A stretch of DNA of 64,000 nt from Minisyncoccia bacterium (GCA_049297675.1 JBAQUS010000011.1:101184-165183); one strand, 5' to 3'; counted from the first letter of the stretch, positions 30,351-64,000 are shown. The notes: generated by a model not told the origin, from the letters alone. Made by a program: numbers and translations.

Positions 30351-30358
30351 AAATAAAA

Positions 30359-30622: not shown

Positions 30623-30639
30623 TGACTATGAATTACACG

Positions 30640-30790: not shown

Positions 30791-30809
30791 CTCGTTAAAA
30801 ATCAACCAA

Positions 30810-33020: not shown

Positions 33021-33221
33021 TTGAAAGTTATAACCATGGCAAAGACATCAGTACTGGCACGAGCCGCAAAAAAGCCAAAGTTTTCTACACGGGCAACAAA
33101 CCGATGTTTTAAGTGTGGACGTGGAAGAGCATTTATGAGAGACTTTGGTCTCTGCAGGATATGCTTCCGCGAGCTTGCCAATGAAGGGAAGATACCAGGT
33201 GTGAAAAAGTCGTCTTGGTAA
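33021..33221 (+). CDS. rpsZ: 30S ribosomal protein S14, type Z (zinc-ribbon form)
   Basis: 61-aa protein with [23 protein letters not shown]. Confidence 0.85.
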
Positions 33222-33350
33222 GTCGAGGCTCACTAGAGCATAGATACTACTGAGATATTATAATATAAGTTGAAAGTTCATAAAGTAAATCCAAAATTCA
33301 CTTTACAAACTTTACAAACTTTAAGAACTTTATAACTTTAAAACTGATTT

Positions 33351-33740: not shown

Positions 33741-33772
33741 CCCACGAATGAATACCCGCGAATCTTAACGAA

Positions 33773-34315: not shown

Positions 34316-34369
34316 AACAATCTTTTGGATTGGTCGGCCGACTCCGAAGGGGTTTAGGCACAAAATACA

Positions 34370-34720
34370 ATGAAAAGTCAAAATATTAAAAAAGAAAAAA
34401 GAGTGAGAAGACACAAAAGGATAAGAGCCAAGGTTTTTGGAACTACCGACAAGCCCAGACTCTCTGTTTTTAAATCAAACAAGCATATTTCTGCCCAGAT
34501 AATAGATGACTCAACTGGAAAAACTCTTGTCTCAGCGCATTCAAGAGAGTTTTCGGGGAAAAAGATGGTAGAAAAATCAAAAATGGTTGGAGAAAGTATA
34601 GCCACAAAAGCCGTTTCAAAAAAGATAGATAAAGTAGTTTTTGATAGAGGAGGATTTATTTATACAGGTAATATAAAAGCTCTAGCTGATGGAGCTAGAA
34701 GTAGTGGGCTTAAATTTTAG
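34370..34720 (+). CDS. rplR: 50S ribosomal protein L18
   Basis: [44 protein letters not shown]. Confidence 0.85.
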
Positions 34721-34730
34721 AACAACAACC

Positions 34731-35336
34731 ATGGAACCAGAAAAAATAAATGAAGAAATAAAAGTCAATGAGGTGGCTCAGGAGGTTACCCTTCCCCCAG
34801 ATGTTTCTCCTGTGCAAAGCAGGGTTCCAAGGGAGTTTAAGAAGAATCAGAGAAAGTCAGGGCCAAGACGTGAAGCTCGTATTAAACCTGAGTTTGATCA
34901 GAAGATTATTAGCATAAGAAGGGTGACTCGAGTTGTTACTGGGGGGAGAAGGTTCACTTTTTCTGTGGCAGTAGTTATAGGTGATGGAAAAGGAAAGGTT
35001 GGTGTTGGTTTGGGTAAGGCTGGAGATACTCCTCTAGCAATAGACAAGGCTGTTAGAGATGCTAAAAAAAACATGATAAAAGTAGCAACTACAAAATCTG
35101 GGAGTATTCAGCATGAAGTGTCAGCAAAGTATGGATCATCAAGAGTACATATAATGAGAGCTCCAGGCAAGGGAGTTTTGGCTGGATCATCAGTCAGGAC
35201 AGTCTTAGAGTTTGCTGGTCTTAAGGAGGTTTCGGCAAAGATTTTCTCGAGAAGCAAGAATAAAATAAACAATGCTAAAGTGGCCATAAAAGCACTAAGT
35301 CAACTAATCAGTAGACAAGCAGATCAAAATAACTAA
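34731..35336 (+). CDS. rpsE: 30S ribosomal protein S5 (start taken at the internal Met; the ORF track begins at 34689 overlapping rplR)
   Basis: ISIRRVTRVVTGGRRFTFSVAVVIGDGKGKVGVGLGKA. Confidence 0.85.
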   Translation: MEPEKINEEIKVNEVAQEVTLPPDVSPVQSRVPREFKKNQRKSGPRREARIKPEFDQKIISIRRVTRVVTGGRRFTFSVAVVIGDGKGKVGVGLGKAGDTPLAIDKAVRDAKKNMIKVATTKSGSIQHEVSAKYGSSRVHIMRAPGKGVLAGSSVRTVLEFAGLKEVSAKIFSRSKNKINNAKVAIKALSQLISRQADQNN

Positions 35337-35342
35337 AGTATT

Positions 35343-35786
35343 ATGCAAAAGCACAACTTAAAAAGAAATCATCCGAATAAGTCCAAAAGAATGGTTGGTC
35401 GTGGTGGCAAGCATGCCAAAACGTCAGGACGTGGAACTAAGGGACAAAACGCTCGTGCTGGTCATAAGAAAAGACCAGAAATAAGAGATTTTATAAAAAG
35501 AATACCAAAACTTCGTGGTAGGGGAAAAAATATAAACACAAGTATTCAGTCAAAGTATTCAGTCATTAGTCTAGGTCTCTTAAATGAGCTTTGTAAAGAT
35601 GGAGATATCATTTCACCTGCGACTTTGGTTAAGCACGGTCTTTTAAAGAAATCGGAGGGAACACTTCCTAGAGTCAAAATACTTGGAGGTGGTGACATAA
35701 AAAAGAAGCTTAATTTTGTTAGTTGCCAAGTTTCTCAATCCACAAGATTAGCAATTGAGAAAGCAGGTGGAAGTATAAAATATTAA
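35343..35786 (+). CDS. rplO: 50S ribosomal protein L15 (directly follows rpsE; no rpmD/L30 gene present)
   Basis: GRGGKHAKTSGRGTKGQNARAG ... full-length L15. Confidence 0.85.
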   Translation: MQKHNLKRNHPNKSKRMVGRGGKHAKTSGRGTKGQNARAGHKKRPEIRDFIKRIPKLRGRGKNINTSIQSKYSVISLGLLNELCKDGDIISPATLVKHGLLKKSEGTLPRVKILGGGDIKKKLNFVSCQVSQSTRLAIEKAGGSIKY

Positions 35787-35793
35787 AAAAGGT

Positions 35794-37065
35794 ATGTCAG
35801 AATTTTTTAAAAAATTTGGTTTAGTTTTTCAGGATAGCAGTCTGAGAAAGAAAATATTCTTCACTTTGATTATTCTTGTTGTTTTCAGGGTTTTGGCAAC
35901 AATACCTGTTCCAGGAATAGATCAGAGTAGATTAGCCCAGTTTTTGTCTGGTAATGAGTTGTTCGGTTTACTAAACATCTTTTCTGGTGGAGGACTTTCC
36001 CAGCTTTCCATAGTCATGCTAGGTGTAGGCCCATATATAACTGGGTCAATCATAATGCAACTTTCTACAATCATCTTTCCTAAGCTTAAGGAAATGTATC
36101 AAGAGGAGGGTGAAGCTGGAAGGAGAAAATTTACACAATACGGCAGGATAATAACTGTTCCTCTAGCTCTACTCCAGTCATTTAGTTTTATTAAGATTTT
36201 GGAGAGTCAACAAGTTATATCACATTTACCTTTATTCCCACTTGTCACCAATCTTCTAGTTATTACAGCAGGCTCTATGCTTCTTATGTGGATTGGTGAA
36301 CTCATCTCTGAATACGGTATAGGAAATGGTGTTTCCCTCATAATTTTTGCTGGAATAGTAGCAACTTTACCTACTGAACTTGCCCAACTAATATTTACCT
36401 TTGATCCTTCACAGATTCCAGTTTATTTGGCTTTCATAGTGGTTGCTGCCATAGTTATTTATGCAGTTGTGGTTATTACTGAAGCTGAAAGACCAATACC
36501 AATAACTTATGCTAAACAAGTCAGGGGCAACAGGATTTACGGTGGGACTTCAACATACCTCCCACTTCGTATAAATCAAGCGGGGGTTATTCCTATAATT
36601 TTTGCCTTGTCTATCCTCCTATTTCCTCAAATGATTTTAAATTACTTACAAAACTCTAGTCAGGAAATCTTGAAGACGGTTTCAAGCACACTTTTGACTA
36701 TTCTAAATAACAGTTGGTTCTACGCTATAGCATACTTTTTGCTTGTTTTTGTATTTACCTATTTCTACACAGCGGTTACTTTTGATCCTGATCAAATCTC
36801 AACAAACTTACAAAAAAATGGAGCATTTATTCCAGGTGTTCGTCCAGGGAAATCAACCTCAGATCATATTTCTAGAATCCTAACACGATTGACTCTTGTT
36901 GGGGCACTTTTTCTAGGATTTATTGCTATATTACCTCTTATAATAAGTGGAGTAACCGGTATTACTGCTGTTTCTGTTGGGGGAACTGCTCTACTCATTG
37001 TTGTTTCTGTGGTTATTGATCTTATTAAAAAAGTTGAAGCACAAGCATCGATAAGGGAATACTAA
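35794..37065 (+). CDS. secY: preprotein translocase subunit SecY
   Basis: 10-TM protein with RKKIFFTLIILVVFRVLATIPVPGID and conserved spc-operon position. Confidence 0.9.
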   Translation: MSEFFKKFGLVFQDSSLRKKIFFTLIILVVFRVLATIPVPGIDQSRLAQFLSGNELFGLLNIFSGGGLSQLSIVMLGVGPYITGSIIMQLSTIIFPKLKEMYQEEGEAGRRKFTQYGRIITVPLALLQSFSFIKILESQQVISHLPLFPLVTNLLVITAGSMLLMWIGELISEYGIGNGVSLIIFAGIVATLPTELAQLIFTFDPSQIPVYLAFIVVAAIVIYAVVVITEAERPIPITYAKQVRGNRIYGGTSTYLPLRINQAGVIPIIFALSILLFPQMILNYLQNSSQEILKTVSSTLLTILNNSWFYAIAYFLLVFVFTYFYTAVTFDPDQISTNLQKNGAFIPGVRPGKSTSDHISRILTRLTLVGALFLGFIAILPLIISGVTGITAVSVGGTALLIVVSVVIDLIKKVEAQASIREY

Positions 37066-48037: not shown

Positions 48038-48601
48038 ATGAAAAATATACTAGTAATTTCGATTATTTTTGTTTTAGTTGGTTTGGGTTTTTGGATATCA
48101 AAATCTGGTAAGAAAAATGCTGAGATAGTTGCAGAAAATATGGTTCCTGTTAGCGCTGAAACTTCATCAGTCCAAAAACCCTCTTCAAACACTGGTCTAT
48201 CTGTAAAAAACACAGTTAGTACAGAAGTATTTACAAATATTCTGCCTCACAAAGGAAATTATGAATGCGAATACGAGGAGGTAACTCAAAGTTCAAGGAG
48301 TTCACATAATATATATCTCTCTGATGGTAAAATGAGAGGGGAGTTTAGAACATACTCTGTTTCTGGTGGAATTTCAAACATTATGGTTTACGACGGTTCA
48401 CGTCTTTATACTTGGATAGAGGGTCAAACAGTCGGGACGAGTATGGTGCCAAAGTCTCTTTCAGATTTTCCATCCATCATTCCAAAGGATATACTTCAGT
48501 CTAAAATTCTTGGATCAGGTCTAAACAGCGCTAGTTGGAATTGTCACGCCTGGAGTAGGGTACCGTCGCTACTCGCCAAACCATCCTACGTGAAATTCTA
48601 A
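48038..48601 (+). CDS. hypothetical secreted/membrane-anchored protein
   Basis: ORF track; N-terminal hydrophobic segment. Confidence 0.35.
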   Translation: MKNILVISIIFVLVGLGFWISKSGKKNAEIVAENMVPVSAETSSVQKPSSNTGLSVKNTVSTEVFTNILPHKGNYECEYEEVTQSSRSSHNIYLSDGKMRGEFRTYSVSGGISNIMVYDGSRLYTWIEGQTVGTSMVPKSLSDFPSIIPKDILQSKILGSGLNSASWNCHAWSRVPSLLAKPSYVKF

Positions 48602-49776
48602 TCACTTAAATAACCGGTTACGCGTAGTGCCTCCTCTATCGTTGTCACCCCCATCACCACTTTTTCGAAAGCCGAAGTTTTTAGACTTTTAACATTTTTT
48701 CTCTTTAGAAGGTCGAGTATGATAGAACTTGGTTGAGAGTCAAAAATTGCTGATCTTACTTCTGAATCAATATTAATTATTTCAAATATCCCAGTTCTAC
48801 CAACAAAACCTAGGCTTTGGCAAACATTACAACCTTCACCGAAGTAGAATTTAGACCCTCTAAATTCTGGAGGTATAATCTCCATTTGTCTTTCTGTTGG
48901 AGCTGTTTCCTTTTTACAATTGTCACATATTCTTCTAACTAACCTTATTGCAACCACTCCTCGTATTGACTGTGCCACGATAGATCTATCCACGTTCATT
49001 TCAACCAATCTGTTAACTAGTGCTGGCAGGTCAAATGTGTGGAAAGTTGAGAGTAGAAGTATTCCGGCAAGGGATGCTTGTACAGCCATGATAGCAGTCT
49101 CGGGATCACGGATTTCCCCGAGCATTATGACATCTGGGTCTTGGCGGAGGATCGATCTTATAGCGGCCGCAAAAGTTAATCCTATCTCACTATTTATGCT
49201 TGTTTGTCTGACGTTTTCTATCTGGTACTCAACTGGATCTTCTATAGTTACTATATTTTTCTCAGGAGTATTGAGATAATTTATTATTGAGTAAAGGAGA
49301 TTGGTTTTTCCTGAACCAGTTGGCCCAGTGACTAAGATAAGTCCGTTCGGGCTTCGGATAAGATTTTGCAAAAGCTCAAGCTGATCTTGATCAAGTCCAA
49401 GGTCTTCCATCTTTAGTATGACATCTTGTTCTCCATGTAGACGAAAGACTATACTCTCACCGTAAATATCTGGCATGGTTGAAACACGAATACTGTAAAC
49501 TTTATTTTTGTAGGCAAATTCAAAATGTCCGTCTTTTGGAATACGATGCTCAACAATATCCATTTGCGAAAGTATTTTTATTCTCGAAACGAGTTGTTCT
49601 TCCATACTTAGATTGAGCGACTGAATGGGATGAAGGATACCATCAATCCTAAAACGCACATTAAAGCCTTCTCTTGTCGGCTCAAAGTGGATGTCACTGG
49701 CGCGATTTTCGATGGCCATACCAATAAGGTTGTCGAGGACTTGGGCTGTGTTCAAACTATCCTTTGGATTATTCAT
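48598..49776 (-). CDS. pilB: type II secretion / type IV pilus assembly ATPase (GspE/PilB family)
   Basis: Walker A LVTGPTGSGKTNLLYSII, the GspE-type Asp/His boxes and a C-terminal CxxC...CxxC zinc motif. Confidence 0.8.
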   Translation of the reverse strand: MNNPKDSLNTAQVLDNLIGMAIENRASDIHFEPTREGFNVRFRIDGILHPIQSLNLSMEEQLVSRIKILSQMDIVEHRIPKDGHFEFAYKNKVYSIRVSTMPDIYGESIVFRLHGEQDVILKMEDLGLDQDQLELLQNLIRSPNGLILVTGPTGSGKTNLLYSIINYLNTPEKNIVTIEDPVEYQIENVRQTSINSEIGLTFAAAIRSILRQDPDVIMLGEIRDPETAIMAVQASLAGILLLSTFHTFDLPALVNRLVEMNVDRSIVAQSIRGVVAIRLVRRICDNCKKETAPTERQMEIIPPEFRGSKFYFGEGCNVCQSLGFVGRTGIFEIINIDSEVRSAIFDSQPSSIILDLLKRKNVKSLKTSAFEKVVMGVTTIEEALRVTGYLSD

Positions 49777-50696: not shown

Positions 50697-51220
50697 TTTA
50701 TAACTCTATGTCAAGGGGTAGTTTGGGCGCCGAAAGGGTGGCTAAGATGTTGAGACTTTTATGAAGAAAGGGCAGTTGGTTAGGAATGATTTTAGTTTCG
50801 TTAATACAAGAATCACTTCATTGCTCAATAGTTTTTTATTAGACGAGGTGTCTTTTACTGAAAGCGTGTCCTGAGCCATGTTTTAAGTATTTTTCAAATT
50901 TTAGTGCCTTATTTTTATTTGGAAATGCGCAAAACCAGATTAATGAGAATGGAAGTTTAGTTTTTGAGTATCTAGACTCCCCGTTATTGTGTTCTTTTAG
51001 TCTATTCTTGATGTTTTCTGTGCTTCCGAAATATAGACTACCATCCTTCTGACTTTTTTAGAATGTAAACATAGTGCATATAAAGAATATATATCCTGCG
51101 TCGCTTGATTACAAGCTATGCAGGATCCACTGCTTCGCTAACAAAAAACCTCACAGGTTGTGTGAAGTTTCTTGTGCTAAAGGTATTTAGTGCCTGCACT
51201 GCGTAGCTTTAGCGAAGCAG

Positions 51221-51617
51221 TGGAGATGCCGATAGTTGAAATCGGGTCCATAAAGTGAATCGAGACAGATCTACAATACTTAGTTTACTTAAAGTTTTAA
51301 TCCGTGTTGCTTAGAGTAAACCAAACACAACACGGACGATCTTCTATTTTCTGGTTTCACTCGAAGAAAGTGAAACTATAACCTTAGTTTATATCAATCA
51401 TCTCCTCCTTAAAGGTTCAAGAGGAGAGACCGTCGTTTAGGTGTTGAGTTTAAGCAACTGCGTAAGCGAAAGCAAAATCGTTTGCTCCAAAATATGGAGA
51501 AGCGGATGCTTTTTTAGATAAGTTTTTTACACTTAATCTTTCCAGACTTTTTAAGAGTTTCTGGAGCTCTGTATTGCCTGAATCAATATCGTCTTTATGT
51601 CAAAACCTGTCATCCCC
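51221..51617 (-). ncRNA. ssrA: tmRNA (ssrA), about 397 nt, predicted tag peptide (A)ANDFAFAYAVA
   Basis: minus-strand 5' end GGGGATGACAGGTTTTGACA resembles GGGGCTGATTCTGGATTCGAC; the 3' end CCGAT-TTCAACT-ATCGG-CATCTCC-A forms a T-arm and a 7-bp acceptor stem with the 5' end, including a G3:U70 wobble pair; internal ORF GCA AAC GAT TTT GCT TTC GCT TAC GCA GTT GCT TAA at about 51450-51485; smpB lies immediately upstream. Confidence 0.6.
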
Positions 51618-51729: not shown

Positions 51730-52173
51730 CTATTTACCTTTCAAGTCTCTCTCGATATCACGTTCTGTGTCTCTCTTCTTGATCGACTCTCTTTTGTCGA
51801 ATTTTTTCTTGCCCCTAGCGACTGCGATATCGAGCTTTATTAGACCCCCCTTATTATACACCGAAATTGGGACAATTGTCAATCCTTTAGCGTTTTCAGT
51901 GCCAGATAGAGCCATAATCTCCTTTTTGCTAAGCAAAAGTCGTCGGTTTCTGTACGGATCATAGTCTTTTGGAGTGTTTCCAGCTTGATATGGCGGGATG
52001 AACATGCCAATTAAATAGGCTTCCGCACCACGAATGGTTACATAAGTACCCTCTAAAGACCCCTGACTTTTCCTTAATGACTTTACCTCAAACCCAAAAA
52101 GCTCTATACCGGCAGTATATTTTTCCAAAATCTCGTAATCGAACCCTGCTTTTCTGTTTGTGATAAGAGACAT
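51730..52173 (-). CDS. smpB: SsrA-binding protein SmpB
   Basis: ITNRKAGFDYEILEKYTAGIELFGFEVKSLR ... GLTIVPISVYNKGGLIKLDIAVARGKK. Confidence 0.9.
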   Translation of the reverse strand: MSLITNRKAGFDYEILEKYTAGIELFGFEVKSLRKSQGSLEGTYVTIRGAEAYLIGMFIPPYQAGNTPKDYDPYRNRRLLLSKKEIMALSGTENAKGLTIVPISVYNKGGLIKLDIAVARGKKKFDKRESIKKRDTERDIERDLKGK

Positions 52174-55294: not shown

Positions 55295-55368
55295 GCGCGT
55301 ATAGCTCAGTTGGTTAGAGCATCGAGCTTATACCTCGAGGGTCCCACGTTCGAGTCGTGGTACGCGCA
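55295..55368 (+). tRNA. tRNA-Ile with anticodon UAU (reads AUA directly)
   Basis: gcgcgta / tagctcagttggttagagc / a / tcgag-cTTATAc-ctcga / gggtc / ccacg-ttcgagt-cgtgg / tacgcgc-a gives a clean cloverleaf with U33 and anticodon TAT; CCA not encoded. Confidence 0.8.
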
Positions 55369-55373
55369 CATCT

Positions 55374-57962: not shown

Positions 57963-58251
57963 ACCCCCGAACTAATTAGGACTTTGAATTATGTTCTATG
58001 TGTATATATTAAAAAGTGAAAAGGACAACAATCTTTACACTGGGTATACAAATGATCTTAAAAGGAGACTCATAGAACATAATTCAGGTAAAAGTAAGTC
58101 AACTAAATCGAGAAAACCATTTGAGTTGATATATTACGAAGCAAGGATGACGCTACGCATAGGGAACAAATGTTAAAGGAATACGGTAGATCTCTAGGTG
58201 GCTTAAAAAGACGAATAAGCATGAGTCTTAAGTCCTAATTAGTTCGGGGGT
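57963..58251. mobile_element. 289-bp cassette bounded by perfect 22-bp terminal inverted repeats (ACCCCCGAACTAATTAGGACTT) that encloses only a GIY-YIG nuclease ORF
   Basis: left arm about 57963-57984, right arm about 58230-58251 (exact reverse complement). Confidence 0.5.
57991..58176 (+). CDS. GIY-YIG nuclease (UPF0213-like), interrupted by an apparent +1 frameshift near 58140-58150; the downstream frame continues ...DDATHREQMLKEYGRSLGGLKRRISMSLKS to 58238
   Basis: YVYILKSEKDNNLYTGYTNDLKRRLIEHNSGKS is the GIY-YIG motif; the C-terminal homology resumes in the +2 frame. Confidence 0.55.
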   Translation: MFYVYILKSEKDNNLYTGYTNDLKRRLIEHNSGKSKSTKSRKPFELIYYEARMTLRIGNKC

Positions 58252-58262: not shown

Positions 58263-59429
58263 ATGAATAGAAAGATACTAATGAGTTTGGGTGCCATAGT
58301 TTTTGTTGTGGCACTTTCAATCACAGCAACAGGTGCATTCTTCTCTGATAGTGAAACATCTACAGGGAACACTTTAACAGCAGGTTCAATCGACTTAAAG
58401 ATTGACAACACAAGTTATGTTACAAGTACTTCTACAGGACAGCTTATAGCAAGCCCTTGGACTACTTGGACAATAAGGGATTTGACAGTCGAGAAGTTTT
58501 TTGACTTTATCGATCTAAAACCAGGAGATATGGGAGAGGATACTATTTCTCTTCACGTTGACAACAACGATTCATATCTCTGTGCCGATATTACTCTGAC
58601 TTCAAACAATGAAAACACATTAGTTGAGCCAGAAATGGAGGATGGCGACGTTTCATCAACAACTGGCGAACTTGCTCAGCAAGTAAACTTCCTATGGTGG
58701 CCAGACGATGGAGATAACGTTCTAGAAGTTGGAGAGACAGTTCTTCCTGGAGGACCTCTAGGAGCTGCTGGAGTTGGAGCAACTACAACAGTCACTCTAG
58801 CTGACTCAGTCTTTAACATTTGGACAGGAGTAGGAGGTCCAGTTCCAGGTGCTTCGACAAGATACATCGGAAAAGCATGGTGCTTTGGAGCAATCACACC
58901 TGCACCACTTGCTCAGGATAACGCCACAACTAGCGGTCCTCTAGTAAGAGGCCCTGGTCTAACTTGTGACGGATCCCAAGCAGACAATACTGCCCAAACA
59001 GATAGTTTAACAGCAGACATAGCTTTCAGAGCTGTTCAGTCAAGAAATAACGGTGATTTCCAGTGTGTGGTTAGACAAACACCACCACCTCCACCACCAG
59101 CACCAGCAACAGTTACAATTGACAAGGAAGTTTCATTTACAAATATAGCTGTTGTGGGGGTTGATGTAAGCGACTTTGAACTTCACTTATTTGGTCCAGG
59201 TGGCGATCATATCTTAACTGATAATGTTCCATTCCCAGGACTTACTCCAGGAGTTTACACAGTATCTGAGATTTATTCAGGTGTTCCAGCTAATGCAACA
59301 TCTACAGCTGTATTCGGTGGAAGTTGCGTAGAAATAGGAACTACTGATACAGCAACGATGAACGTGGTCTCTGGTGTTAACCCAACGTGTACGATCACAA
59401 ACTCTGTTTCAACAACAACACCAAATTAG
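58263..59429 (+). CDS. TasA/camelysin (peptidase M73)-like secreted protein with a SipW-cognate-type signal peptide, paralogue 1
   Basis: signal peptide then GAFFSDSETSTGNTLTAGSIDLKIDN, DLKPGDMGEDTISLHVDNNDSYLCADITLT, YIGKAWCFG, ADIAFRAVQSRN; compare TasA NLKPGDKLTKDFQF and QFSFEATQWNG. Confidence 0.6.
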   Translation: MNRKILMSLGAIVFVVALSITATGAFFSDSETSTGNTLTAGSIDLKIDNTSYVTSTSTGQLIASPWTTWTIRDLTVEKFFDFIDLKPGDMGEDTISLHVDNNDSYLCADITLTSNNENTLVEPEMEDGDVSSTTGELAQQVNFLWWPDDGDNVLEVGETVLPGGPLGAAGVGATTTVTLADSVFNIWTGVGGPVPGASTRYIGKAWCFGAITPAPLAQDNATTSGPLVRGPGLTCDGSQADNTAQTDSLTADIAFRAVQSRNNGDFQCVVRQTPPPPPPAPATVTIDKEVSFTNIAVVGVDVSDFELHLFGPGGDHILTDNVPFPGLTPGVYTVSEIYSGVPANATSTAVFGGSCVEIGTTDTATMNVVSGVNPTCTITNSVSTTTPN

Positions 59430-59598
59430 TAGATAATTAATAAGGATACTTTAACTCATTAGTATCTTTGTAGGTGGCAGTTCATAACAAAAAAGTAGTT
59501 GTGGACTGCAACCGAACAGAGATACGAGATGAAATACAAGGGAGTTAAAAGTGTGAAAGTAGAAATTGTGAAAGTAAGAAATTAAAGATTAAAGATTA

Positions 59599-60897
59599 AT
59601 GAAAAAAATTTTCCTATCGATCTCAAGTATCATATTCGCTGGAGCAATCCTTGCCGGAGGGACGGGGGCTTTTTTCAACAGCCAAAACACTTCAACTGGC
59701 AATACTTTTGCTACAGGCATTATTGATTTGAAGATTGATAATGAAAGTTATGTTACGGACGAAAACGGAAAACTGGTTTTCAGTCCTAGCACATCTTGGG
59801 CACTATCGACTTTGATAGGGAAACTTTTCTTTAATTTTCCAGACATAAAACCGGGAGACATTGGAGAAGACACCATATCGCTTCATGTAAGCAACAACAA
59901 CGCTTGGGCATGTATGAATATAACTCTGACAGGTACGCCAGAGAATGGTCAGAGCGAACCAGAAGCTCTAGTGGACACAACTACTGGAGTGAATGACGGT
60001 GAGCTTCAATACGAGCTCTATTTTGCATTCTGGGCAGATGATGGAGACAATGTCTACGAGTCCAACGAAAAAATCTTTAAGCAAGGACTTGCTAAAGATA
60101 TTTTCAATGGTGAGAGCTGGCCACTTTCTGATTCCAAATCAAACATTTGGAGTCCTCCACCTTGGCCAATCCAAGCTGGAGCCACAAAGTATATTGCAAA
60201 GGCCTGGTGTTTCGGTGTTATGGGTAAGACTCCTGTAACACAGGATGGTCTTGGTAAAACTGGCTCAAACGGACCACTAGCGAGGGGTACTGGTTTTACT
60301 TGCGATGGAGAGCCACTAGGAAATATTTTGCAGTCAGATGGTATTACTGCGGATGTTTCTTTCACGGCAGTTCAGTCACGTAATTATCCAGAGTTTGTTT
60401 GCGGACAAGGAGAGCCAGCACCAATACCACAAACTTCGACACTTTTCTTCGACAACTTCGAAAGCTATGAGGTTAACACCAATGTTGATCCATTAAATCT
60501 AAAGTGGGTACAAGTTGGTGGTGTGCAAGCAATATGGGGTCTGGATGGGAAAGTAGCTGATTTAGATACTGGTGATGGATCTGAAACCATAACTTCGAAA
60601 AGTTTGGATCTTTCGATTTATCACGACATCACTCTAAAATACAGCAGAAAAAGTGACGATACGGCTGGCACTGTAGATCCACAAACACTAAAGGTGGAGT
60701 ATAGCGTAGACGGCGGTGGAAATTGGACTACGCTTGAAACCATAAACGGGGAGACAGTGTGGACAACAAAGACGTTCAGTCTTTCTCCATCCGCAAATAA
60801 CAAGTCGGATGTCAAAATACGATTTGTTTTGACTGGTACAAATAGCACAAATCATGTTTACATAGACAACGTTTCTCTGACAGGAGTGACACCATAA
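59599..60897 (+). CDS. TasA/camelysin-like secreted protein, paralogue 2, with an additional C-terminal beta-rich domain
   Basis: shares the N-terminal module (GTGAFFNSQNTSTGNTFATGIIDLKIDNESY ... ISLHVSNNNAWACMNITLT ... ADVSFTAVQSRN); the C-terminal domain ending YIDNVSLTGVTP is shared with paralogue 3. Confidence 0.6.
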   Translation: MKKIFLSISSIIFAGAILAGGTGAFFNSQNTSTGNTFATGIIDLKIDNESYVTDENGKLVFSPSTSWALSTLIGKLFFNFPDIKPGDIGEDTISLHVSNNNAWACMNITLTGTPENGQSEPEALVDTTTGVNDGELQYELYFAFWADDGDNVYESNEKIFKQGLAKDIFNGESWPLSDSKSNIWSPPPWPIQAGATKYIAKAWCFGVMGKTPVTQDGLGKTGSNGPLARGTGFTCDGEPLGNILQSDGITADVSFTAVQSRNYPEFVCGQGEPAPIPQTSTLFFDNFESYEVNTNVDPLNLKWVQVGGVQAIWGLDGKVADLDTGDGSETITSKSLDLSIYHDITLKYSRKSDDTAGTVDPQTLKVEYSVDGGGNWTTLETINGETVWTTKTFSLSPSANNKSDVKIRFVLTGTNSTNHVYIDNVSLTGVTP

Positions 60898-60975
60898 AAA
60901 ATAAAGAAAGACCGTATACAAAATTAACAGAATTATTGTGACAGTAACGAAGGATCGTGATCTGTCTCTAACGGG

Positions 60976-63741
60976 ATGAAAAAAATACTACTTAGCACTG
61001 CGATTGTAATGTTTGTGGGTGGGGCGCTCGCCATGGGAGGGACAGGGGCTTTTTTCTCTGACAGAGAATTGTCAGGGGGGAATATTTTCACTGCCGGAGC
61101 CATTGACCTCAAGATAGACAACGAGAGTTATTACAACGGCAAAGTTTCCACCACAACCAGCTGGACACTCTCAGATCTGACGATTGAAAAGTTTTTTAAT
61201 TTTCTAGATCTTAAACCAGATGATTATGGAGAAGACACAGTCAGTATTCATGTTGATACGAACGACGCCTACCTTTGTGCCAATATCACTCTGACATCGG
61301 ATGATGATAACGGAATAAACGAACCGGAATCAGCTTCAGATCAAACAGATGGACCTGGAGCGGGTGAACTTGGAGACAATGTCAACTTTATGTGGTGGGC
61401 AGACGATGGTGATAATGTTCTAGAAGACGGTGAGAATGTCATCTCACAAGGTCCTATAGGAGATTTGACTCTAAACGTTCCTTACTATTTCACTTTGGCT
61501 GACTCTGACCAGAACATTTGGACTGGCTCGGGTGGTCCTGTACCAGGCGAGAAGACTTTGTATATTGGAAAGGCATGGTGTTTCGGTAGTATTTCACCAA
61601 GCCCTCTTTCACAAAGTTCAACTGGTTCTAGGTCTACTACTACGCCAGCAGGTGATGGAAACAACAATCTAGTTTTAGGTGAACCTGAGGATGGTGGTTA
61701 CTTGTGTGACGGAACAGGCTTAAATAACTCGACTCAAACAGACAGTTTAACGGCCGATGTGTCCTTTAGTGCTATTCAATCAAGAAATAACAGGGATTTC
61801 CAGTGTCAGGGCCCAAGTGAACCAGAGGTAACATCTCTAACACTCATAAAACAGGTTATAGGTATTCCAGATGTGGGACCAAACGAATCAGCATCTAGCT
61901 GGACACTTTCTGCAAGTGGCGGTCCAACACCATTCTCTGGTCCAGGTCCATCTGTTAACTCACCTGTAAATTTTCAACCAGGAGCATATACACTTTCTGA
62001 AAATGTAGTGCCCGGATATACTTCTGGTAATTGGAATTGCGATGCGGGAGTTCTAGTTGGTGATGAGTTAACTCTTGCAGAGGGTCAATCGGCAACTTGT
62101 ACAATTATAAATACAGAGGAGGCTATTGCGTGCAATGCCAGAATTGATCTTATGATAGTTATGGATAACTCATCTTCTATAAATGATACAGAGGAAGCTA
62201 TGATGAAATCTGGTGCGGTAGCTTTCGTCAATGCTCTGACAATAACTACTCCTGGTAATCATGGTGGTCTTACAAGTTTTGATGACGGAGCAGTTTTGAG
62301 TCAAGCATTAACCGATAACCAAGCTACTTTGCTAGCTGCAGTCAATGCACCGTTTGGTAGCGGACTGACAAATCTTGAGGCTGGAATACTGGGAGCTACA
62401 ACAGAGCTCGGTGGACCAAATGACAGGACACCAGACACAGACTCAGATTTTCCTGATGTTATGGTAGTCATAACTGACGGTAATCCTACAGCTTCAAATG
62501 GACCAGATACAGACGAGATAGATGCCTTTAATGCGGCAACGGCGGCAAAATCTGCAGGTATTGAGGTTTATGTAGTTGGTGTTGGAGCCGATGTCAATGC
62601 TGGTTATCTAGCTACCATTGCCAGTCCCGGTAAATATTATTCAGCCGAAAATTTTTCAGATCTTGAATCGGCACTTCTGACAATTGCTAATTGCGGACAA
62701 GTCCCAACTGGAACACTTACTGTAACTAAAGTTGTAGTTTCTGGGAATGATCCTACCCCAGCTTCCATAGGAGATTTTCCACTTTTTGTTGATGGTCTTT
62801 CAGTTGTATCAGGAGTTTCTACAACCACAATTGCAGGATCTCATGTCGTAAGTGAGACAAACAACGATCCAGACTACACTTCTGTTATAGGAGGACCTGA
62901 TTGTGATGCAAATGGTAATGTCACAGTCCCAATTGGTGGAGTAGCAAGTTGCACCATTACAAATACATGGAATGAACCGCATGGAACACTAACAGTAAAC
63001 AAAGTTAGAGTTGGTGGTTTTGGACTTCAAGCAACTTCAACATTTCAGTTTGTTGTAAATGGTGGAGCTCCAACAAATTTTGAATCAGACGGTTCAAATC
63101 AAATCTCTGTGCCAGTCGGTCCATACACTGTTGCAGAGGTTGCAACGACAAGTTACAGTATTCTTTATAGTGCTGGTTGTAGTGGAGTAATGAGTCCTGG
63201 TGGAAATGAGACTTGTACAATTACAAATACGGCAGAAATTGTTAATTTTGCCCTAGCAAATGGAAATTTCGGTACAGGAGCTACAACCACTGACATAAAT
63301 AGTTGGGATGAGGAAGGAACTGACAGCGACGCAACAACACAATCTATTCCAGCTGGAAGCGGTCAAAATATTGGAAGTCCTGATGGAGACAAATTTGCTA
63401 TAATCGGAAATGACGAATGGATTTGTAAAGCGGTTTCAACTTCCGGTTTCAGTTCACTCTCCGTTAGTTACTATTGGAAAGGAGATCCTGATGCAGAAGA
63501 CGGCGAAAGTGGTGTCTTGGAGCATAGATCAAATGGAACCTGTAACTCTGGTGGCGGATGGACAACGGTAGCCACACACGAGTTGGATGATGCTAACAAT
63601 AACCTCGACGAGGGATGGAGTTCTCTTCAAGGAGTAGGTTTGCCAAACGACATAACCCTATTTAGGTTTAGGAATGGGTCAAATAGCAGTGGAGAAGACT
63701 TTAGGGTTGATGGTGTCAGTCTGACCGGAATACCAAATTAA
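60976..63741 (+). CDS. TasA/camelysin-like secreted protein, paralogue 3 (921 aa), with an internal von Willebrand factor A domain and the shared C-terminal domain
   Basis: the N-terminal module as above; vWA MIDAS DLMIVMDNSSSIND ... MVVITDGNPT ... VYVVGVG; the C-terminus ends FRVDGVSLTGIPN. Confidence 0.6.
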   Translation: MKKILLSTAIVMFVGGALAMGGTGAFFSDRELSGGNIFTAGAIDLKIDNESYYNGKVSTTTSWTLSDLTIEKFFNFLDLKPDDYGEDTVSIHVDTNDAYLCANITLTSDDDNGINEPESASDQTDGPGAGELGDNVNFMWWADDGDNVLEDGENVISQGPIGDLTLNVPYYFTLADSDQNIWTGSGGPVPGEKTLYIGKAWCFGSISPSPLSQSSTGSRSTTTPAGDGNNNLVLGEPEDGGYLCDGTGLNNSTQTDSLTADVSFSAIQSRNNRDFQCQGPSEPEVTSLTLIKQVIGIPDVGPNESASSWTLSASGGPTPFSGPGPSVNSPVNFQPGAYTLSENVVPGYTSGNWNCDAGVLVGDELTLAEGQSATCTIINTEEAIACNARIDLMIVMDNSSSINDTEEAMMKSGAVAFVNALTITTPGNHGGLTSFDDGAVLSQALTDNQATLLAAVNAPFGSGLTNLEAGILGATTELGGPNDRTPDTDSDFPDVMVVITDGNPTASNGPDTDEIDAFNAATAAKSAGIEVYVVGVGADVNAGYLATIASPGKYYSAENFSDLESALLTIANCGQVPTGTLTVTKVVVSGNDPTPASIGDFPLFVDGLSVVSGVSTTTIAGSHVVSETNNDPDYTSVIGGPDCDANGNVTVPIGGVASCTITNTWNEPHGTLTVNKVRVGGFGLQATSTFQFVVNGGAPTNFESDGSNQISVPVGPYTVAEVATTSYSILYSAGCSGVMSPGGNETCTITNTAEIVNFALANGNFGTGATTTDINSWDEEGTDSDATTQSIPAGSGQNIGSPDGDKFAIIGNDEWICKAVSTSGFSSLSVSYYWKGDPDAEDGESGVLEHRSNGTCNSGGGWTTVATHELDDANNNLDEGWSSLQGVGLPNDITLFRFRNGSNSSGEDFRVDGVSLTGIPN

Positions 63742-63759
63742 TTTATTAGTTAGAAAAAC

Positions 63760-64000
63760 ATGAAAAAAATATTATTAAGTTCAGCTCTGATATTGTTTGT
63801 TAGCGGAGCCTTGGGCTTAGGAGGCACTGGAGCTTTTTTCTCTGACAAAGAGATTTCCAGATTGAACAGCTTCACTGCCGGAGCCATTGATCTAAAGATA
63901 GACAACGAGAGTTACTACAACGGTGTGGTTTCAACTACAACCAGCTGGACACTTGCAGATCTAACCATTCAAAAATTTTTTGATTTTCCTGATCTGAAGC
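63760..64000 (+). CDS. TasA/camelysin-like secreted protein, paralogue 4 (5' partial, runs off the window)
   Basis: MKKILLSSALILFVSGALGLGGTGAFFSDKEISRLNSFTAGAIDLKIDNESYYNG ... is the same N-terminal module. Confidence 0.55.
   Translation, partial: MKKILLSSALILFVSGALGLGGTGAFFSDKEISRLNSFTAGAIDLKIDNESYYNGVVSTTTSWTLADLTIQKFFDFPDLK

What the first reader, a model, noticed from the sequence alone, without database searches (positions are those of the whole stretch)
58263..64000. Tandem array of four diverged TasA/camelysin-like secreted paralogues, one with a vWA domain
All four ORFs start with the same module: a signal peptide, then G(T)GAFFSD, T(A)G.IDLKIDNESY, DLKPGD.GEDT.S.HV..N.A..C..ITLT, F.WADDGDNV.E, YI.KAWCFG and AD..F.AVQSRN. 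This module aligns with the SipW-processed TasA/CalY (M73) fibre proteins. The regions after it differ between paralogues:
- a Pro-rich linker plus an Ig-like domain in paralogue 1;
- a jelly-roll-like C-terminal domain ending DNVSLTG in paralogues 2 and 3;
- a complete vWA/MIDAS domain in paralogue 3.
The pattern looks like a major subunit plus minor or tip adhesin subunits of a TasA-type filament, which would be a candidate attachment fibre in an episymbiotic CPR cell. No SipW-type signal peptidase lies in the window.
Basis: partly seen in the sequence, partly recalled or inferred. Interest (0 to 1): 0.75.

Follow-up and report, generated by a model that had tools for sequence, protein, structure and literature searches.

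The report
TasA-like fibre operon in CPR bacterium
Four neighbouring genes in an ultra-small (CPR) bacterium encode relatives of the TasA biofilm-fibre protein, each fused to a different adhesion-type domain and followed by their own signal peptidase, so they probably build an adhesive surface fibre: a known kind of machine in a new form.

Summary
Three complete ORFs (58263-59429, 59599-60897, 60976-63741) and a fourth cut by the window end (from 63760) share a ~270-aa N-terminal module (46-66% identity).

The module has:
- a SipW-type signal peptide (TIGR04088 and PF12389 at or near threshold);
- sequence similarity to B. subtilis TasA over its first ~100 residues (hhalign);
- a predicted fold whose best PDB matches are the TasA fibre, archaeal bundling pilin AbpA and the Sulfolobus thread, all donor-strand filaments.

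C-terminal domains differ: a SpaA-type Ig domain, an Asp-box jelly roll, and vWA/MIDAS plus SpaA repeats.

The source contig (Minisyncoccia MAG) shows what the window lacks. After paralogue 4 (454 aa) come a SipW/archaeal-type signal peptidase I and a TapA-like protein carrying the same signal and donor-strand motif. In related Patescibacteria loci, 61 of 62 with enough downstream sequence have this peptidase directly after 2-4 tandem TasA-like genes. In 11 loci it is fused to the TapA-like protein.

Best reading: a tapA-sipW-tasA / sipW-bsaABC-type system whose subunits each carry an adhesin domain. Polymerisation, subunit order and a role in attachment are inferred, not shown. I rate it a new variant of a known kind, of moderate interest.

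The parts
58263..59429 (+). Paralogue 1 (388 aa): signal peptide, TasA-like module, Pro-rich linker, one SpaA-type Ig-like domain
   Evidence: ORF. TIGR04088 scores 22.3 bits against a cut-off of 19. PF12389 scores 22.4 bits against a gathering score of 22.5. Module profile E 8e-116. PGAP name: 'SipW-dependent-type signal peptide-containing protein'.
59118..59426 (+). Paralogue 1 C-terminal prealbumin/Ig-like (SpaA_2-type) domain, aa 286-388, with two Cys
   Evidence: No Pfam hit. hhalign against the SpaA_2-type domains of par3 and par4 gives prob 97.7 and 98.8. Cys355 and Cys376.
59599..60897 (+). Paralogue 2 (432 aa): signal peptide, TasA-like module, Asp-box jelly-roll domain. This is the most conserved paralogue type across relatives.
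   Evidence: ORF. PF12389 scores 23.7 bits, above the gathering score of 22.5, and TIGR04088 scores 20.5 bits, above its cut-off of 19. At least 1500 homologues, the top 120 at 59-94% identity.
59599..59670 (+). Paralogue 2 SipW-type signal peptide (aa 1-24), predicted cleavage ...G-T-G-A|F-F-N-S
   Evidence: TIGR04088 match over aa 9-40. hhalign places T22-G-A24 on TasA T25-W-A27, the known SipW cleavage site (TasA mature start at residue 28 per PMC9674648). Position. Cleavage is inferred.
59671..59709 (+). Paralogue 2 putative donor strand (aa 25-37, FFNSQNTSTGNTF), equivalent to TasA residues 28-39
   Evidence: hhalign alignment. The segment is disordered in the monomer model, pLDDT below 50 for aa 1-33. 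Yet aa 21-43 is the most conserved segment across 204 modules, 0.71 against 0.46-0.60 elsewhere. N35 is conserved in 92% and F37 in 94%. The function is inferred.
59671..60408 (+). Paralogue 2 TasA-like jelly-roll module (aa 25-270) with four conserved Cys and an acidic WADDGDN loop
60436..60894 (+). Paralogue 2 C-terminal jelly-roll domain (aa 280-432), Reelin_subrepeat-B-like, with an Asp-box SVDGGGNW
   Evidence: PF21471 scores 28.5 bits against a gathering score of 27, E 1.4e-6. Motif position.
60976..63741 (+). Paralogue 3 (921 aa): signal peptide, TasA-like module, SpaA_2, vWA/MIDAS, two more SpaA-like repeats, C-terminal jelly-roll-like domain
   Evidence: ORF. Pfam SpaA_2 E 2.3e-19, VWA E 4.1e-19, PF12389 20.9 bits, which is below the gathering score. 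Module profile E 1e-112. PGAP name: 'VWA domain-containing protein'.
61051..61824 (+). Paralogue 3 TasA-like module (aa 26-283)
   Evidence: Alignment. 66% identical to the par4 module.
61831..62106 (+). Paralogue 3 first SpaA_2 prealbumin-like domain (aa 286-377)
   Evidence: Pfam PF19403, best stretch aa 286-377.
62146..62670 (+). Paralogue 3 vWA domain (aa 391-565) with a complete MIDAS (DNSSS at 62164-62178, T465, D501), bracketed by Cys386 and Cys573
   Evidence: Pfam VWA scores 69.9 bits against a gathering score of 23.8. Motifs and Cys positions.
62710..63279 (+). Paralogue 3 second and third SpaA-like repeats (aa ~579-768), each ending in a (S/T)CTITN motif
   Evidence: SpaA_2 E 2.6e-4 on aa 579-661 when scanned alone. 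The third repeat rests on the motif and Cys pattern only.
63286..63738 (+). Paralogue 3 C-terminal domain (aa 771-921), weakly similar to the par2 jelly roll, ending in VDGVSLTG
   Evidence: BLASTP against the par2 C-terminus: E 3e-4, 25% identity over 116 aa. No Pfam hit.
63760..64000 (+). Paralogue 4, first 80 aa only. The full gene is 454 aa on the source contig: module plus two SpaA-like domains. It is followed off-window by a SipW-type signal peptidase I (176 aa) and a TapA-like protein 'P' (376 aa).
   Evidence: Sequence. Source contig JBAQTD010000011.1 is held as L001, and window position = L001 position + 49598, with identical sequence over the overlap. Par4 is L001 14162-15526. The peptidase is L001 15662-16192, TIGR02228 101.7 bits against a cut-off of 51.85. 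P is L001 16179-17309.

Best explanation
The four ORFs are the subunit genes of a SipW-dependent, TasA-superfamily surface-fibre operon. The operon continues just past the window end.

**Anatomy of each protein**
- a SipW-type signal peptide, with predicted cut ...T-G-A|F-F-x-D;
- a highly conserved 13-20 residue N-terminal segment that corresponds position for position to the TasA donor strand;
- a ~245-aa jelly-roll module with the TasA fold, four conserved cysteines and an acidic WADDGDN loop;
- a paralogue-specific C-terminal 'cargo'. Par1 has one SpaA/CnaB-type Ig domain. Par2 has an Asp-box jelly roll of lectin/CBM type. Par3 has SpaA, vWA-MIDAS, two more SpaA repeats and a jelly roll. 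Par4 has two SpaA domains.

**Rest of the operon**
Directly downstream lie a SipW/archaeal-type signal peptidase I and a protein I call P. P has a membrane helix, the same signal and donor-strand motif (…GGTVS|YFNDRE…N…), a small Ig-like beta-sandwich and an acidic disordered tail. This layout is the same as that of TapA.

**Proposed mechanism**
1. The proteins are exported by Sec.
2. The operon's own peptidase cuts them and frees the F-F-x-D N-terminus.
3. That strand inserts into the groove of the next subunit's module (donor-strand exchange, no chaperone).
4. The result is a fibre in which every subunit displays its own adhesin or stalk domain sideways.
5. P can donate a strand but has no full acceptor module, so it would start, cap or tether the fibre.

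**Shown here:** paralogy, domain content, fold similarity, the cognate peptidase, and strict conservation of the operon across Patescibacteria.

**Inferred:** cleavage, polymerisation, subunit order, and a role in attachment to surfaces, matrix or host cells.
For: **Signal peptide and family HMMs.** TIGR04088 is above its cut-off in par1 and par2. PF12389 is at or near the gathering score in all four.

**Sequence link to TasA.** hhalign of the module profile against B. subtilis TasA gives prob 83, E 9e-6, over signal, donor strand, KPGD motif and beyond.

**Donor-strand segment.** It is disordered in the monomer model but is the most conserved segment in 204 modules. [quoted passage not shown] This is the signature reported for TasA/AbpX donor strands (bioRxiv 10.64898/2026.01.04.697558).

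**Operon.** SipW-type peptidase: TIGR02228 at 101.7 bits against 51.85, and the SipW model at E 9e-32. In 61 of 62 related loci with enough downstream DNA, such a peptidase starts within 600 bp of the last of 2-4 tandem TasA-like genes. The 62nd locus has it before a fifth copy. All module genes lie on one strand in 77 of 77 loci.

**P protein.** It carries the same motif. Its N-terminal ~95 aa are homologous to the module, hhalign prob 94.6. It is fused in frame to the peptidase in 11 loci. Its start overlaps the peptidase stop by 14 nt, as tapA and sipW overlap in B. subtilis (PMC10151520). Its model shows a membrane helix, a disordered strand, a beta-sandwich and a disordered tail.

**Precedents.**
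- C. perfringens sipW-bsaA-bsaB-bsaC combines SipW, TasA-like paralogues and a vWA protein.
- A FAST protein fused to the C-terminus of BsaA was detected at the cell surface.
- SpaA-domain genes neighbour BsaA/TasA genes in other species.
All three are from PMC11580942.
Against: - No multimer model or experiment shows strand exchange here.
- HMMER profiles see TasA only through the signal and first strand. PDB sequence searches with one protein or with the family profile find nothing.
- Every paralogue in this genome carries a bulky C-terminal domain and there is no bare subunit.
- Par2 has Ser instead of the acidic residue at mature position 4.
- BsaB shows that a TasA-like paralogue need not form long oligomers.
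- No anchor is present in the locus: no LPXTG or sortase signal, and no other recognisable anchor domain.
- P is not detectably homologous to TapA. Its fold search gives only generic Ig-like hits.
Confidence: 0.65

Rival explanations
1. The proteins are SipW-processed secreted or surface adhesins that do not polymerise. The TasA-like jelly roll would serve as a stalk, a ligand-binding module or a cell-surface attachment module. The conserved N-terminal segment would be conserved only as a recognition site for the peptidase.
For: - Every paralogue here carries adhesin-type domains: vWA, SpaA, jelly roll.
- No bare subunit exists in this genome.
- C. perfringens BsaB is TasA-like but forms at most dimers, and BsaC (vWA) is secreted as a monomer.
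- The conserved segment includes the cleavage site itself.
Against: - Conservation extends 13-20 residues beyond the cleavage site, with the TasA-like pattern: aromatic at position 2, acidic at position 4, N-x-F.
- The same segment is kept in the otherwise divergent P protein.
- The best structural matches are all donor-strand filament subunits.
- 34 of 76 related loci include a module-only copy with no adhesin domain.
Confidence: 0.2
2. The proteins do polymerise, but as a shed extracellular matrix or gel scaffold of the TasA/BsaA/AbpX biofilm type. They would hold cells in a biofilm or aggregate, rather than forming a cell-attached pilus for host attachment.
For: - All characterised TasA-superfamily members are biofilm-matrix or bundling fibres (PMC9674648, PMC9245690, bioRxiv 10.64898/2026.01.04.697558).
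- No cell-wall anchor is encoded in the locus.
Against: - vWA-MIDAS and lectin-like domains fused to individual subunits are more typical of adhesive pili than of matrix scaffolds (general knowledge of RrgA/SpaC-type tip adhesins and FimH).
- P has a membrane helix and is fused to the membrane peptidase in 11 loci, which could tether fibres to the cell.
- Neither point is decisive. This rival differs from the best explanation only in biological role.
Confidence: 0.3
3. The module is a camelysin-type (MEROPS M73) metalloprotease, as the Pfam family name suggests. The paralogues would be secreted enzymes.
For: - The Pfam family hit is named Peptidase_M73.
- Several His, Glu and Asp residues are nearly invariant: H96, E90, E122, D147-D150.
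Against: - No HExxH or inverted motif occurs in any paralogue.
- The PF12389 match covers only the signal peptide and first strand.
- The literature regards the peptidase label as a probable misidentification of CalY (PMC11580942).
- The fold matches filament subunits, not peptidases.
Confidence: 0.03
4. They are precursors of ribosomally synthesised peptides. JGI labels some homologues 'predicted ribosomally synthesized peptide with SipW-like signal peptide'.
For: JGI labels on P0002, P0038, P0067 and others.
Against: - The proteins are 388-921 aa with confidently folded domains.
- The label merely reflects the TIGR04088 signal match.
- No modification enzymes lie in the locus.
Confidence: 0.01

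Closest known systems
Bacillus subtilis tapA-sipW-tasA (TasA fibre, PDB 8AUR; TapA; SipW)
   Same: - SipW-type signal peptide and a T-x-A| cleavage context.
- An N-terminal donor-strand segment that aligns residue by residue (F26/F29, F37/F39), and the KPGD motif.
- A jelly-roll fold that is the best PDB match.
- A dedicated ER/archaeal-type signal peptidase in the operon.
- An accessory protein whose N-terminus mimics the subunit's donor strand, has an Ig-like body and a disordered tail, and whose gene overlaps the peptidase gene.

   Different: - Four paralogous subunits instead of one.
- The module is larger (~245 aa) with insertions, four conserved Cys and an acidic WADDGDN loop.
- Every subunit here has C-terminal adhesin or stalk domains.
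- Gene order is subunits-peptidase-accessory.
- It fails the TasA equivalog model: NF046066 16.5 bits against 450.
- P has no detectable homology to TapA.
- The host is a Patescibacteria MAG.
Clostridium perfringens sipW-bsaA-bsaB-bsaC (PMC11580942)
   Same: - An operon that combines a SipW peptidase, several remote TasA homologues and a vWA-domain protein.
- A donor strand at residues ~28-38 with an Asn two residues before a core-facing Phe (BsaA N35/F37; here N35/F37).
- A FAST protein fused to the BsaA C-terminus was surface-exposed.
- Type IV pilus genes are implicated there, and pilin-like genes lie nearby here.

   Different: - Here the vWA domain is fused to a TasA-like module instead of being a separate protein.
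- BsaA-type proteins with the triad were reported mainly from Clostridia, Coprobacillaceae, Enterococcaceae and Thermococcus, not CPR.
Archaeal TasA-superfamily filaments: AbpA bundling pili (7UEG), Saci_0406 threads (7PNB), cannulae CanA/CanX (9H8B), AbpX, Tafi
   Same: - Jelly-roll subunits that polymerise by N-terminal donor-strand complementation without a chaperone.
- Loci often carry a signal peptidase I, accessory proteins and minor or tip components.
[quoted passage not shown]
   Different: - No detectable sequence similarity.
- The archaeal subunits are 150-220 aa single-domain proteins.
- Published superfamily surveys used RefSeq and a 100-350 aa filter, which would miss this MAG-only clade with its long fusions.
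Sortase-assembled Gram-positive pilus tip adhesins (RrgA / SpaC / GBS104 type; from general knowledge)
   Same: Par3 combines a vWA-MIDAS domain with SpaA/CnaB-type prealbumin-like stalk domains. Par1 and par4 carry SpaA-type domains.
   Different: - No LPXTG sorting signal, C-terminal membrane anchor or sortase gene.
- The polymerisation module is TasA-like and N-terminal.
Two-domain chaperone-usher adhesins such as FimH (pilin domain plus lectin domain; an analogy only)
   Same: One polypeptide joins a donor-strand-exchange polymerisation domain to a ligand-binding domain. This is inferred from the architecture.
   Different: - Unrelated in sequence and assembly pathway; there is no chaperone or usher.
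- Here all subunits, not only the tip, carry an extra domain, and all keep their own donor strand.

Membership tests
TasA/CalY family (Pfam PF12389 Peptidase_M73) | Match to PF12389 at or above the gathering score (22.5 bits) | tested here: inconclusive
   Par2 scores 23.7 and par4 22.8, both above. Par1 scores 22.4 and par3 20.9, both just below. All matches cover only profile positions ~4-63 of 196, which is the signal peptide and first strand.
TasA/CalY family (Pfam PF12389 Peptidase_M73) | SipW-dependent-type signal peptide (TIGR04088, cut-off 19 bits) | tested here: met
   Par1 scores 22.3 and par2 20.5, both above. Par4 scores 16.0, below. Par3 is not reported, although its motif is the same by eye.
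TasA/CalY family (Pfam PF12389 Peptidase_M73) | TasA-type jelly-roll fold | tested here: met
TasA/CalY family (Pfam PF12389 Peptidase_M73) | Sequence homology to TasA beyond the signal peptide | tested here: met
   hhalign gives prob 82.9, E 9e-6, over 97 columns to TasA residue 106. HMMER profile against PDB sequences finds nothing.
TasA/CalY family (Pfam PF12389 Peptidase_M73) | Orthology to B. subtilis TasA (NCBIfam equivalog NF046066, cut-off 450) | tested here: not met
   16.5 bits. This is a distant relative, not an orthologue.
TasA superfamily fibre systems (TasA, BsaA, AbpA, AbpX, threads, cannulae) | Polymerisation by N-terminal donor-strand complementation | not testable with these tools
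   Only single-chain prediction was available. Indirect support: the homologous N-terminal segment is disordered in the monomer model yet is the most conserved part of the module.
TasA superfamily fibre systems (TasA, BsaA, AbpA, AbpX, threads, cannulae) | Dedicated signal peptidase I encoded with the subunit genes | tested here: met
   The 176-aa ORF after par4 scores 101.7 bits on TIGR02228 (sigpep_I_arch) against a cut-off of 51.85, with SGSMEP, THRI and GDAN motifs. It is present in 61 of 62 related loci.
SipW (NCBIfam equivalog NF046067, cut-off 190) | Score above the equivalog cut-off | tested here: not met
   110.2 bits, E 8.9e-32, aligned over the full length. It is SipW-like and of the ER/archaeal type, but is not called an orthologue by NCBI's threshold.
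TapA-like nucleator/accessory | N-terminus that mimics the subunit donor strand, behind a SipW-type signal | tested here: met
   The P motif …VGGTVSYFNDRELSLSN… compares with par3 …GGTGAFFSDRELSGGN…. hhalign of the P family against the module gives prob 94.6, E 7e-8. TIGR04088 scores only 12.5 bits.
TapA-like nucleator/accessory | Complete Ig-like body that cannot accept a strand; homology to TapA | tested here: inconclusive
von Willebrand factor A domain with MIDAS | VWA profile match and the DxSxS...T...D metal-site residues | tested here: met
   PF00092 scores 69.9 bits against 23.8. D397-N-S-S-S, T465 in GLTNLEAG and D501 in ITDGNP.
Sortase-dependent pilins (SpaA/CnaB type) | C-terminal LPXTG sorting signal and a sortase gene | tested here: not met
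   No LPXTG-type C-terminal signal occurs in par1-4 or P. No sortase is among the called genes of the locus. Only the SpaA_2 domain type is shared.
M73 metallopeptidase (camelysin) | Catalytic metal-binding motif | tested here: not met
   No HExxH or HxxEH in any paralogue. The literature regards the peptidase assignment of CalY as a misidentification.

The most novel reading that the evidence does not exclude
Paceibacteria/Minisyncoccia (Parcubacteria-type CPR bacteria) may possess a second adhesive organelle besides type IV pili. It would be chaperone-free and assembled by donor-strand exchange. It would be a modular heteropolymer in which each TasA-like subunit carries its own adhesin (vWA-MIDAS, lectin-like jelly roll, CnaB/SpaA stalk). 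A TapA-like protein that is sometimes fused to the peptidase would nucleate or tether it.

The fibre might also be covalently locked, as in BsaA, by an intermolecular isopeptide bond. The candidate residues are the near-invariant donor-strand Asn35 (92%), the invariant Lys84 (201 of 201 modules) and an invariant Glu such as E122. Such a fibre could be the main device for attaching to hosts or surfaces in this very large, mostly uncultured lineage.
Probability: 0.2. Interest if true: 0.8.

Novelty: new variant of a known kind. Interest (0 to 1): 0.55.

Why it matters
How CPR/Patescibacteria cells attach to hosts and surfaces is largely unknown beyond type IV pili.

**Distribution.** This locus is not a one-off.
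- A profile of the module finds 2738 clusters (50% identity) in public data.
- It finds 349 relatives among GTDB species genomes.
- These sit in a nearly invariant operon with a dedicated SipW-type peptidase.

**What it would extend.** It would take the TasA superfamily into CPR as a well-defined clade. Only a one-line AnnoTree note on PF12389 in Patescibacteria was found in the literature (PMC9245690). It also shows a design not described for the superfamily in the papers I could read: polymerisation modules fused one-to-one with adhesin domains, and a peptidase-accessory gene fusion.

**How it can be tested.** It gives direct hypotheses (AF3 multimers, co-expression with the peptidase, cryo-ET) and candidate markers for surface structures of uncultured Paceibacteria.

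**If it is only a matrix protein system.** It is still a useful annotation fix. Par2, par4 and P are 'hypothetical' in PGAP, and some homologues are mislabelled as RiPP precursors.

Tried and rejected
1. PDB sequence searches with par2 alone and with the family profile gave only chance hits: Cux-2 at E 0.11 and phospholipase A2 at E 1.8. Sequence alone does not reach mature TasA.
2. The promoter and terminator scan across the operon found counts at shuffle level. It says nothing about operon structure.
3. Searching the window for a SipW-like or further TasA-like gene found none beyond the four. The peptidase had to be found on the source contig.
4. I tried to compare the evolutionary rate of the modules with that of housekeeping neighbours. 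Only two related loci share RecG, and FtsH is shared by none, so no general claim is possible.
6. Literature searches for SipW or camelysin together with CPR terms found no dedicated study.
7. Mapping the BsaA N35-E56-K74 isopeptide triad onto this family failed.
8. Readings rejected: metalloprotease, because there is no motif; RiPP precursor, because of size and fold; sortase pilin, because there is no LPXTG or sortase.

Full report
**1. What is in the sequence**

The end of the window carries four same-strand ORFs:

| Gene | Window coordinates | Length |
|---|---|---|
| par1 | 58263-59429 | 388 aa |
| par2 | 59599-60897 | 432 aa |
| par3 | 60976-63741 | 921 aa |
| par4 | from ATG 63760 | 80 aa visible, cut by the window end |

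- The gaps between them are 169, 78 and 18 bp.
- A profile of the module hits these four ORFs and nothing else in the window, with E 1e-157 to 1e-112, and 2.5e-27 for the truncated fourth.
- Module identities are 46-66%. Par3 and par4 are the closest pair and par2 is the outlier.

**2. Domain content**

- **Signal region.** Pfam and NCBIfam see the N-terminus as a SipW-type signal peptide plus the start of the TasA/camelysin family. TIGR04088 scores 22.3 bits (par1) and 20.5 bits (par2) against a cut-off of 19. PF12389 scores 20.9-23.7 bits against a gathering score of 22.5, and always covers only the first ~50-60 residues.
- **Par1.** It has a PPPPPP linker and a C-terminal domain that Pfam does not name. 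This domain is homologous to SpaA_2 prealbumin/Ig-like domains (hhalign prob 97.7-98.8).
- **Par2.** It ends in an Asp-box jelly roll, Reelin_subrepeat-B, at 28.5 bits against a gathering score of 27.
- **Par3.** It has SpaA_2 (E 2e-19) and a vWA domain (E 4e-19) with a complete MIDAS: DNSSS at 397, T465 and D501. Two further SpaA-like repeats follow, then a C-terminal domain weakly similar to the par2 jelly roll.
- **Cysteines.** They come in even numbers. The module has four that are conserved in 89-97% of 204 modules. Each SpaA repeat has two. C386 and C573 bracket the vWA domain.
- **Negative checks.** None of the proteins has an LPXTG-type C-terminal signal or an HExxH motif.

**3. Is the module TasA-like beyond the signal peptide?**

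- **Sequence.** HMMER-level searches against PDB sequences find nothing. A profile-to-sequence hhalign against B. subtilis TasA aligns 97 columns (prob 83, E 9e-6). These run from the signal peptide through the donor-strand region and the NLKPGD motif to TasA residue 106.
- **Model.** An AlphaFold2 model of par2 residues 1-272, built on 55 homologues, is confident (pLDDT 81.9, pTM 0.80). Residues 1-33 are disordered.
- **Foldseek against the PDB.** There is exactly one hit with E<=1e-3, the TasA fibre 8aur_A (E 1.1e-5, probability 1.0).

All of these polymerise by N-terminal donor-strand complementation (PMC9674648, PMC9245690, PMC9715654). The scores are moderate, but the ranking is specific.

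**4. The donor-strand region**

In TasA, residues 28-38 form the donor strand, and F29, I32 and F39 make the hydrophobic contacts (PMC9674648).

- The hhalign alignment puts par2 A24|F25 on TasA A27|A28, the SipW cleavage site. It puts F26 on F29 and F37 on F39.
- Across 204 modules from related loci, residues 21-43 are the most conserved segment (mean top-residue frequency 0.71, against 0.46-0.60 elsewhere). Yet this segment is unstructured in the monomer model.
- The family consensus after the cut is F-F-S-D-x-E-T-S-T-G-N-T-F. It has an aromatic at position 2 and, in 90% of modules, Asp at position 4. This is the signature described for TasA and AbpX donor strands.

This is what one expects of a strand that works between molecules. 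It does not prove strand exchange.

**5. What lies beyond the window**

Exact-sequence look-up places the window on contig JBAQTD010000011.1 (179 kb) of assembly GCA_049296815.1, a Minisyncoccia (Patescibacteria/CPR) MAG. The sequence is identical over the overlap. Three genes follow par3:

- **Par4.** Its full length is 454 aa: module plus two SpaA-like domains.
- **A 176-aa signal peptidase.** It starts 136 bp after par4. It is an ER/archaeal-type signal peptidase I of the SipW kind: TIGR02228 scores 101.7 bits against a cut-off of 51.85, and the Bacillus SipW model gives E 9e-32 over the full length. It has SGSMEP, THRI and GDAN motifs.
- **A 376-aa protein, 'P'.** Its start overlaps the peptidase stop by 14 nt.

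The gene is the next but one after the window edge.

**6. The P protein**

P is built as follows:
- a ~45-residue cytoplasmic start;
- a membrane helix;
- the motif …SSVGGTVS-YFNDRELSLSN-YLRADP…, close to par3's …GGTGA-FFSDRELSGGN-IFTAGA…;
- a ~135-residue beta-rich region with two conserved Cys;
- an acidic low-complexity tail.

Further evidence:
- The same motif is present in P-like genes of related loci.
- A profile of these proteins matches the N-terminal ~95 residues of the TasA-like module (hhalign prob 94.6, E 7e-8), but not the rest.
- An AF2 model of a 58%-identical homologue shows a helix, a disordered strand, a beta-sandwich (pLDDT 70-88) and a disordered tail. The alignment behind it had only 8 sequences.

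In layout this mirrors TapA. TapA has a long signal (the mature protein starts at residue 44), a disordered N-terminus resembling the TasA donor strand, a complete Ig fold and a disordered tail. It can only start a filament, and its gene overlaps sipW (PMC10151520). I therefore call P TapA-like in function. Homology to TapA is not demonstrated.

**7. Conservation of the operon**

- The module family is large. There are at least 1500 hits in the 90% clusters, with the top 120 at 59-94% identity. There are 2738 clusters at 50% identity with E<=1e-3, and protein lengths of 263-992 aa.
- A scan of GTDB species genomes found 349 relatives, and 76 loci were fetched. Nearly all are labelled Patescibacteria lineages: Paceibacterota, Kaiser-, Zambryski-, Taylor-, Yonath-, Vogel-, Lloyd-, Adler-, Giovannoni-, Moranbacteria and others.
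- Loci carry 2-4 tandem module genes: 35 loci have three, 31 have two and 8 have four. The genes lie on one strand in 77 of 77 loci.
- In 61 of 62 loci with at least 800 bp downstream, a SipW-like gene starts within 600 bp of the last module gene. The exception has it before a fifth, divergent copy.
- A P-like gene follows or is fused in at least 39 of 60 loci with room. In 11 loci it is fused in frame to the C-terminus of the peptidase. This gene fusion is an independent sign that the two proteins work together.
- The usual layout is a short or variable first gene, a par2-type gene with the jelly roll, and a par4-type gene with two SpaA domains, followed by the peptidase and P.
- A module-only copy (<=320 aa) is present in 34 of 76 loci, but not in this genome.
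- The vWA-bearing paralogue is found only here, in the nearest relative (L003) and in L055. Its module is most similar to par4 (66%), which suggests a lineage-specific duplicate that gained extra domains.

**8. Mechanism proposed**

1. The proteins are exported by Sec.
2. The operon's peptidase cuts at T-G-A|F-F (T-V-S|Y-F in P).
3. The freed N-terminal strand inserts into the next subunit's jelly roll.
4. A fibre results whose subunits each present a C-terminal adhesin or stalk domain sideways.
5. P donates the first strand, or tethers the fibre to the membrane.

All four paralogues keep both a donor strand and an acceptor module. None is therefore structurally a 'tip'. Only P looks like an obligate terminal component.

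C-terminal additions have a precedent. A FAST protein fused to the C-terminus of BsaA was detected at the cell surface (PMC11580942). The C. perfringens operon sipW-bsaA-bsaB-bsaC also already combines SipW, TasA-like paralogues and a vWA protein.

Steps 1-5 and the adhesive role are inferences from homology and architecture.

**9. Rivals**

- **Non-polymerising secreted adhesins.** BsaB is a precedent. The conservation pattern of the donor segment, its retention in P and the existence of module-only copies argue against this, but it is not excluded.
- **A shed biofilm-matrix scaffold rather than a cell-attached adhesive fibre.** This differs only in biological role and cannot be resolved from sequence.
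- **Metalloprotease.** Disfavoured, because there is no HExxH motif and the fold matches filament subunits.
- **RiPP precursor.** Effectively excluded by protein size and fold.

**10. An untested lead**

BsaA locks strand exchange with an intermolecular isopeptide bond between donor N35 and acceptor K74, catalysed by E56. TasA lacks this triad, and the archaeal thread also has intermolecular isopeptide bonds.

- In this family an Asn two residues before the core-facing Phe (N35-T-F37) is kept in 92% of modules. It is also kept in almost all P proteins. TasA has Ala at that position.
- K84, D82, P85, D87, E122, Q245 and D247 are invariant in about 200 modules.

I could not obtain the BsaA sequence to test positional equivalence, so this stays a hypothesis.

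**11. Novelty and score**

What is already on record:
- Wang et al. 2022 note from AnnoTree that PF12389 occurs in Patescibacteria.
- PGAP labels par1 'SipW-dependent-type signal peptide-containing protein' and the peptidase 'signal peptidase I'. Par2, par4 and P are 'hypothetical'.
- I found no paper on SipW or camelysin in CPR.
- A recent superfamily survey used RefSeq and a 100-350 aa length filter, which would exclude this clade.

The system is thus a member of a known kind, the SipW-dependent TasA-superfamily fibres. It has a distinct architecture:
- a multi-paralogue array;
- one-to-one fusion of polymerisation modules with adhesin-type domains;
- four conserved Cys;
- peptidase-accessory gene fusions;
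- CPR-wide conservation.

I rate it a new variant of a known kind, interest 0.55. It is useful and testable, and relevant to CPR surface biology, but it is not a surprise in principle and it lacks direct evidence for assembly.

Noticed in passing
L009, L011, L012, L013, L017, L026, L031, L046, L050, L063, L078 (for example L011 12750-14318): In 11 related loci the SipW-type signal peptidase is fused in frame to the TapA-like P protein. The order is peptidase domain, membrane helices, then the GGT-x-S-Y-F-x-D signal and donor-strand motif. This would make the peptidase its own substrate's carrier.
   Followed up: partly
window 59701-59709 (par2 N35-T-F37) and 59848-59850 (K84); the same columns in about 200 modules from L001-L079: There is a near-invariant Asn in the putative donor strand (92%, also kept in P proteins), plus an invariant Lys84 and Glu122. 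This resembles the N-E-K isopeptide 'exchange-and-lock' triad of C. perfringens BsaA. Positional equivalence could not be tested.
   Followed up: partly
window 60031-60051 (par2 W145-N151, WADDGDN); equivalent loops start at 58704 (par1) and 61402 (par3): This acidic D-D-G-D-N loop is almost invariant across the family (W145 and D147 above 99%). It may be a Ca2+ site, given the calcium-dependent assembly reported for AbpX and cannulae. No structural test was possible.
   Followed up: no
window 62131-62133 and 62692-62694 (par3 Cys386 and Cys573): Two cysteines bracket the vWA domain, and each SpaA-like repeat has its own Cys pair. All the secreted paralogues have even Cys counts (6, 4 and 14). 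This suggests disulfide-stabilised extracellular domains in a CPR bacterium.
   Followed up: no
window 57991-58176 (+); also L001 1241-1414 (-) and L001 19555-20253 (-): A 61-aa GIY-YIG-domain ORF (Pfam E 4e-15) lies directly upstream of par1. Two more GIY-YIG genes lie on the same contig within about 20 kb. They may be homing-endonuclease-like elements or remnants.
   Followed up: no
window 48598-49776 (-); L001 18894-19481 (-); L003 12564-13975 (-): A T2SSE/PilB-type ATPase lies about 8.5 kb upstream. Type IV pilin-like (N_methyl) genes lie just downstream of the operon here and in the nearest relative. In C. perfringens, efficient secretion of BsaC and of BsaA oligomers needs type IV pilus proteins (PMC11580942). 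Any link here is unexamined.
   Followed up: no
window 51218-51617 (-), 51730-52173 (-), 55295-55369 (+): A tmRNA gene (Rfam 112 bits; ARAGORN tag peptide ending ...FAFAYAVA) lies next to smpB. A tRNA-Ile with anticodon TAT lies between the FtsH and RecG genes.
   Followed up: no
L003 (GCA_021733565.1) compared with the window: In the nearest relative, the par1 and par2 modules are 93-95% identical to those of the window, while the neighbouring RecG is 79% and the peptidase 72%. The fibre modules appear to be under stronger constraint than a housekeeping helicase, or were exchanged recently. Only two loci allowed this comparison.
   Followed up: partly
L003 9615-11456: In the nearest relative, the P-position gene encodes a 613-aa protein. 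It has the same signal and donor-strand motif plus a glycoside hydrolase family 26 domain. The accessory protein's body is therefore interchangeable, with lengths of 154-975 aa across loci.
   Followed up: no
window 21000-36000 and 24000-26000: The ribosomal-protein gene cluster is interrupted by small toxin-antitoxin-like ORFs and by a stretch of higher G+C (0.44 against about 0.37).
   Followed up: no
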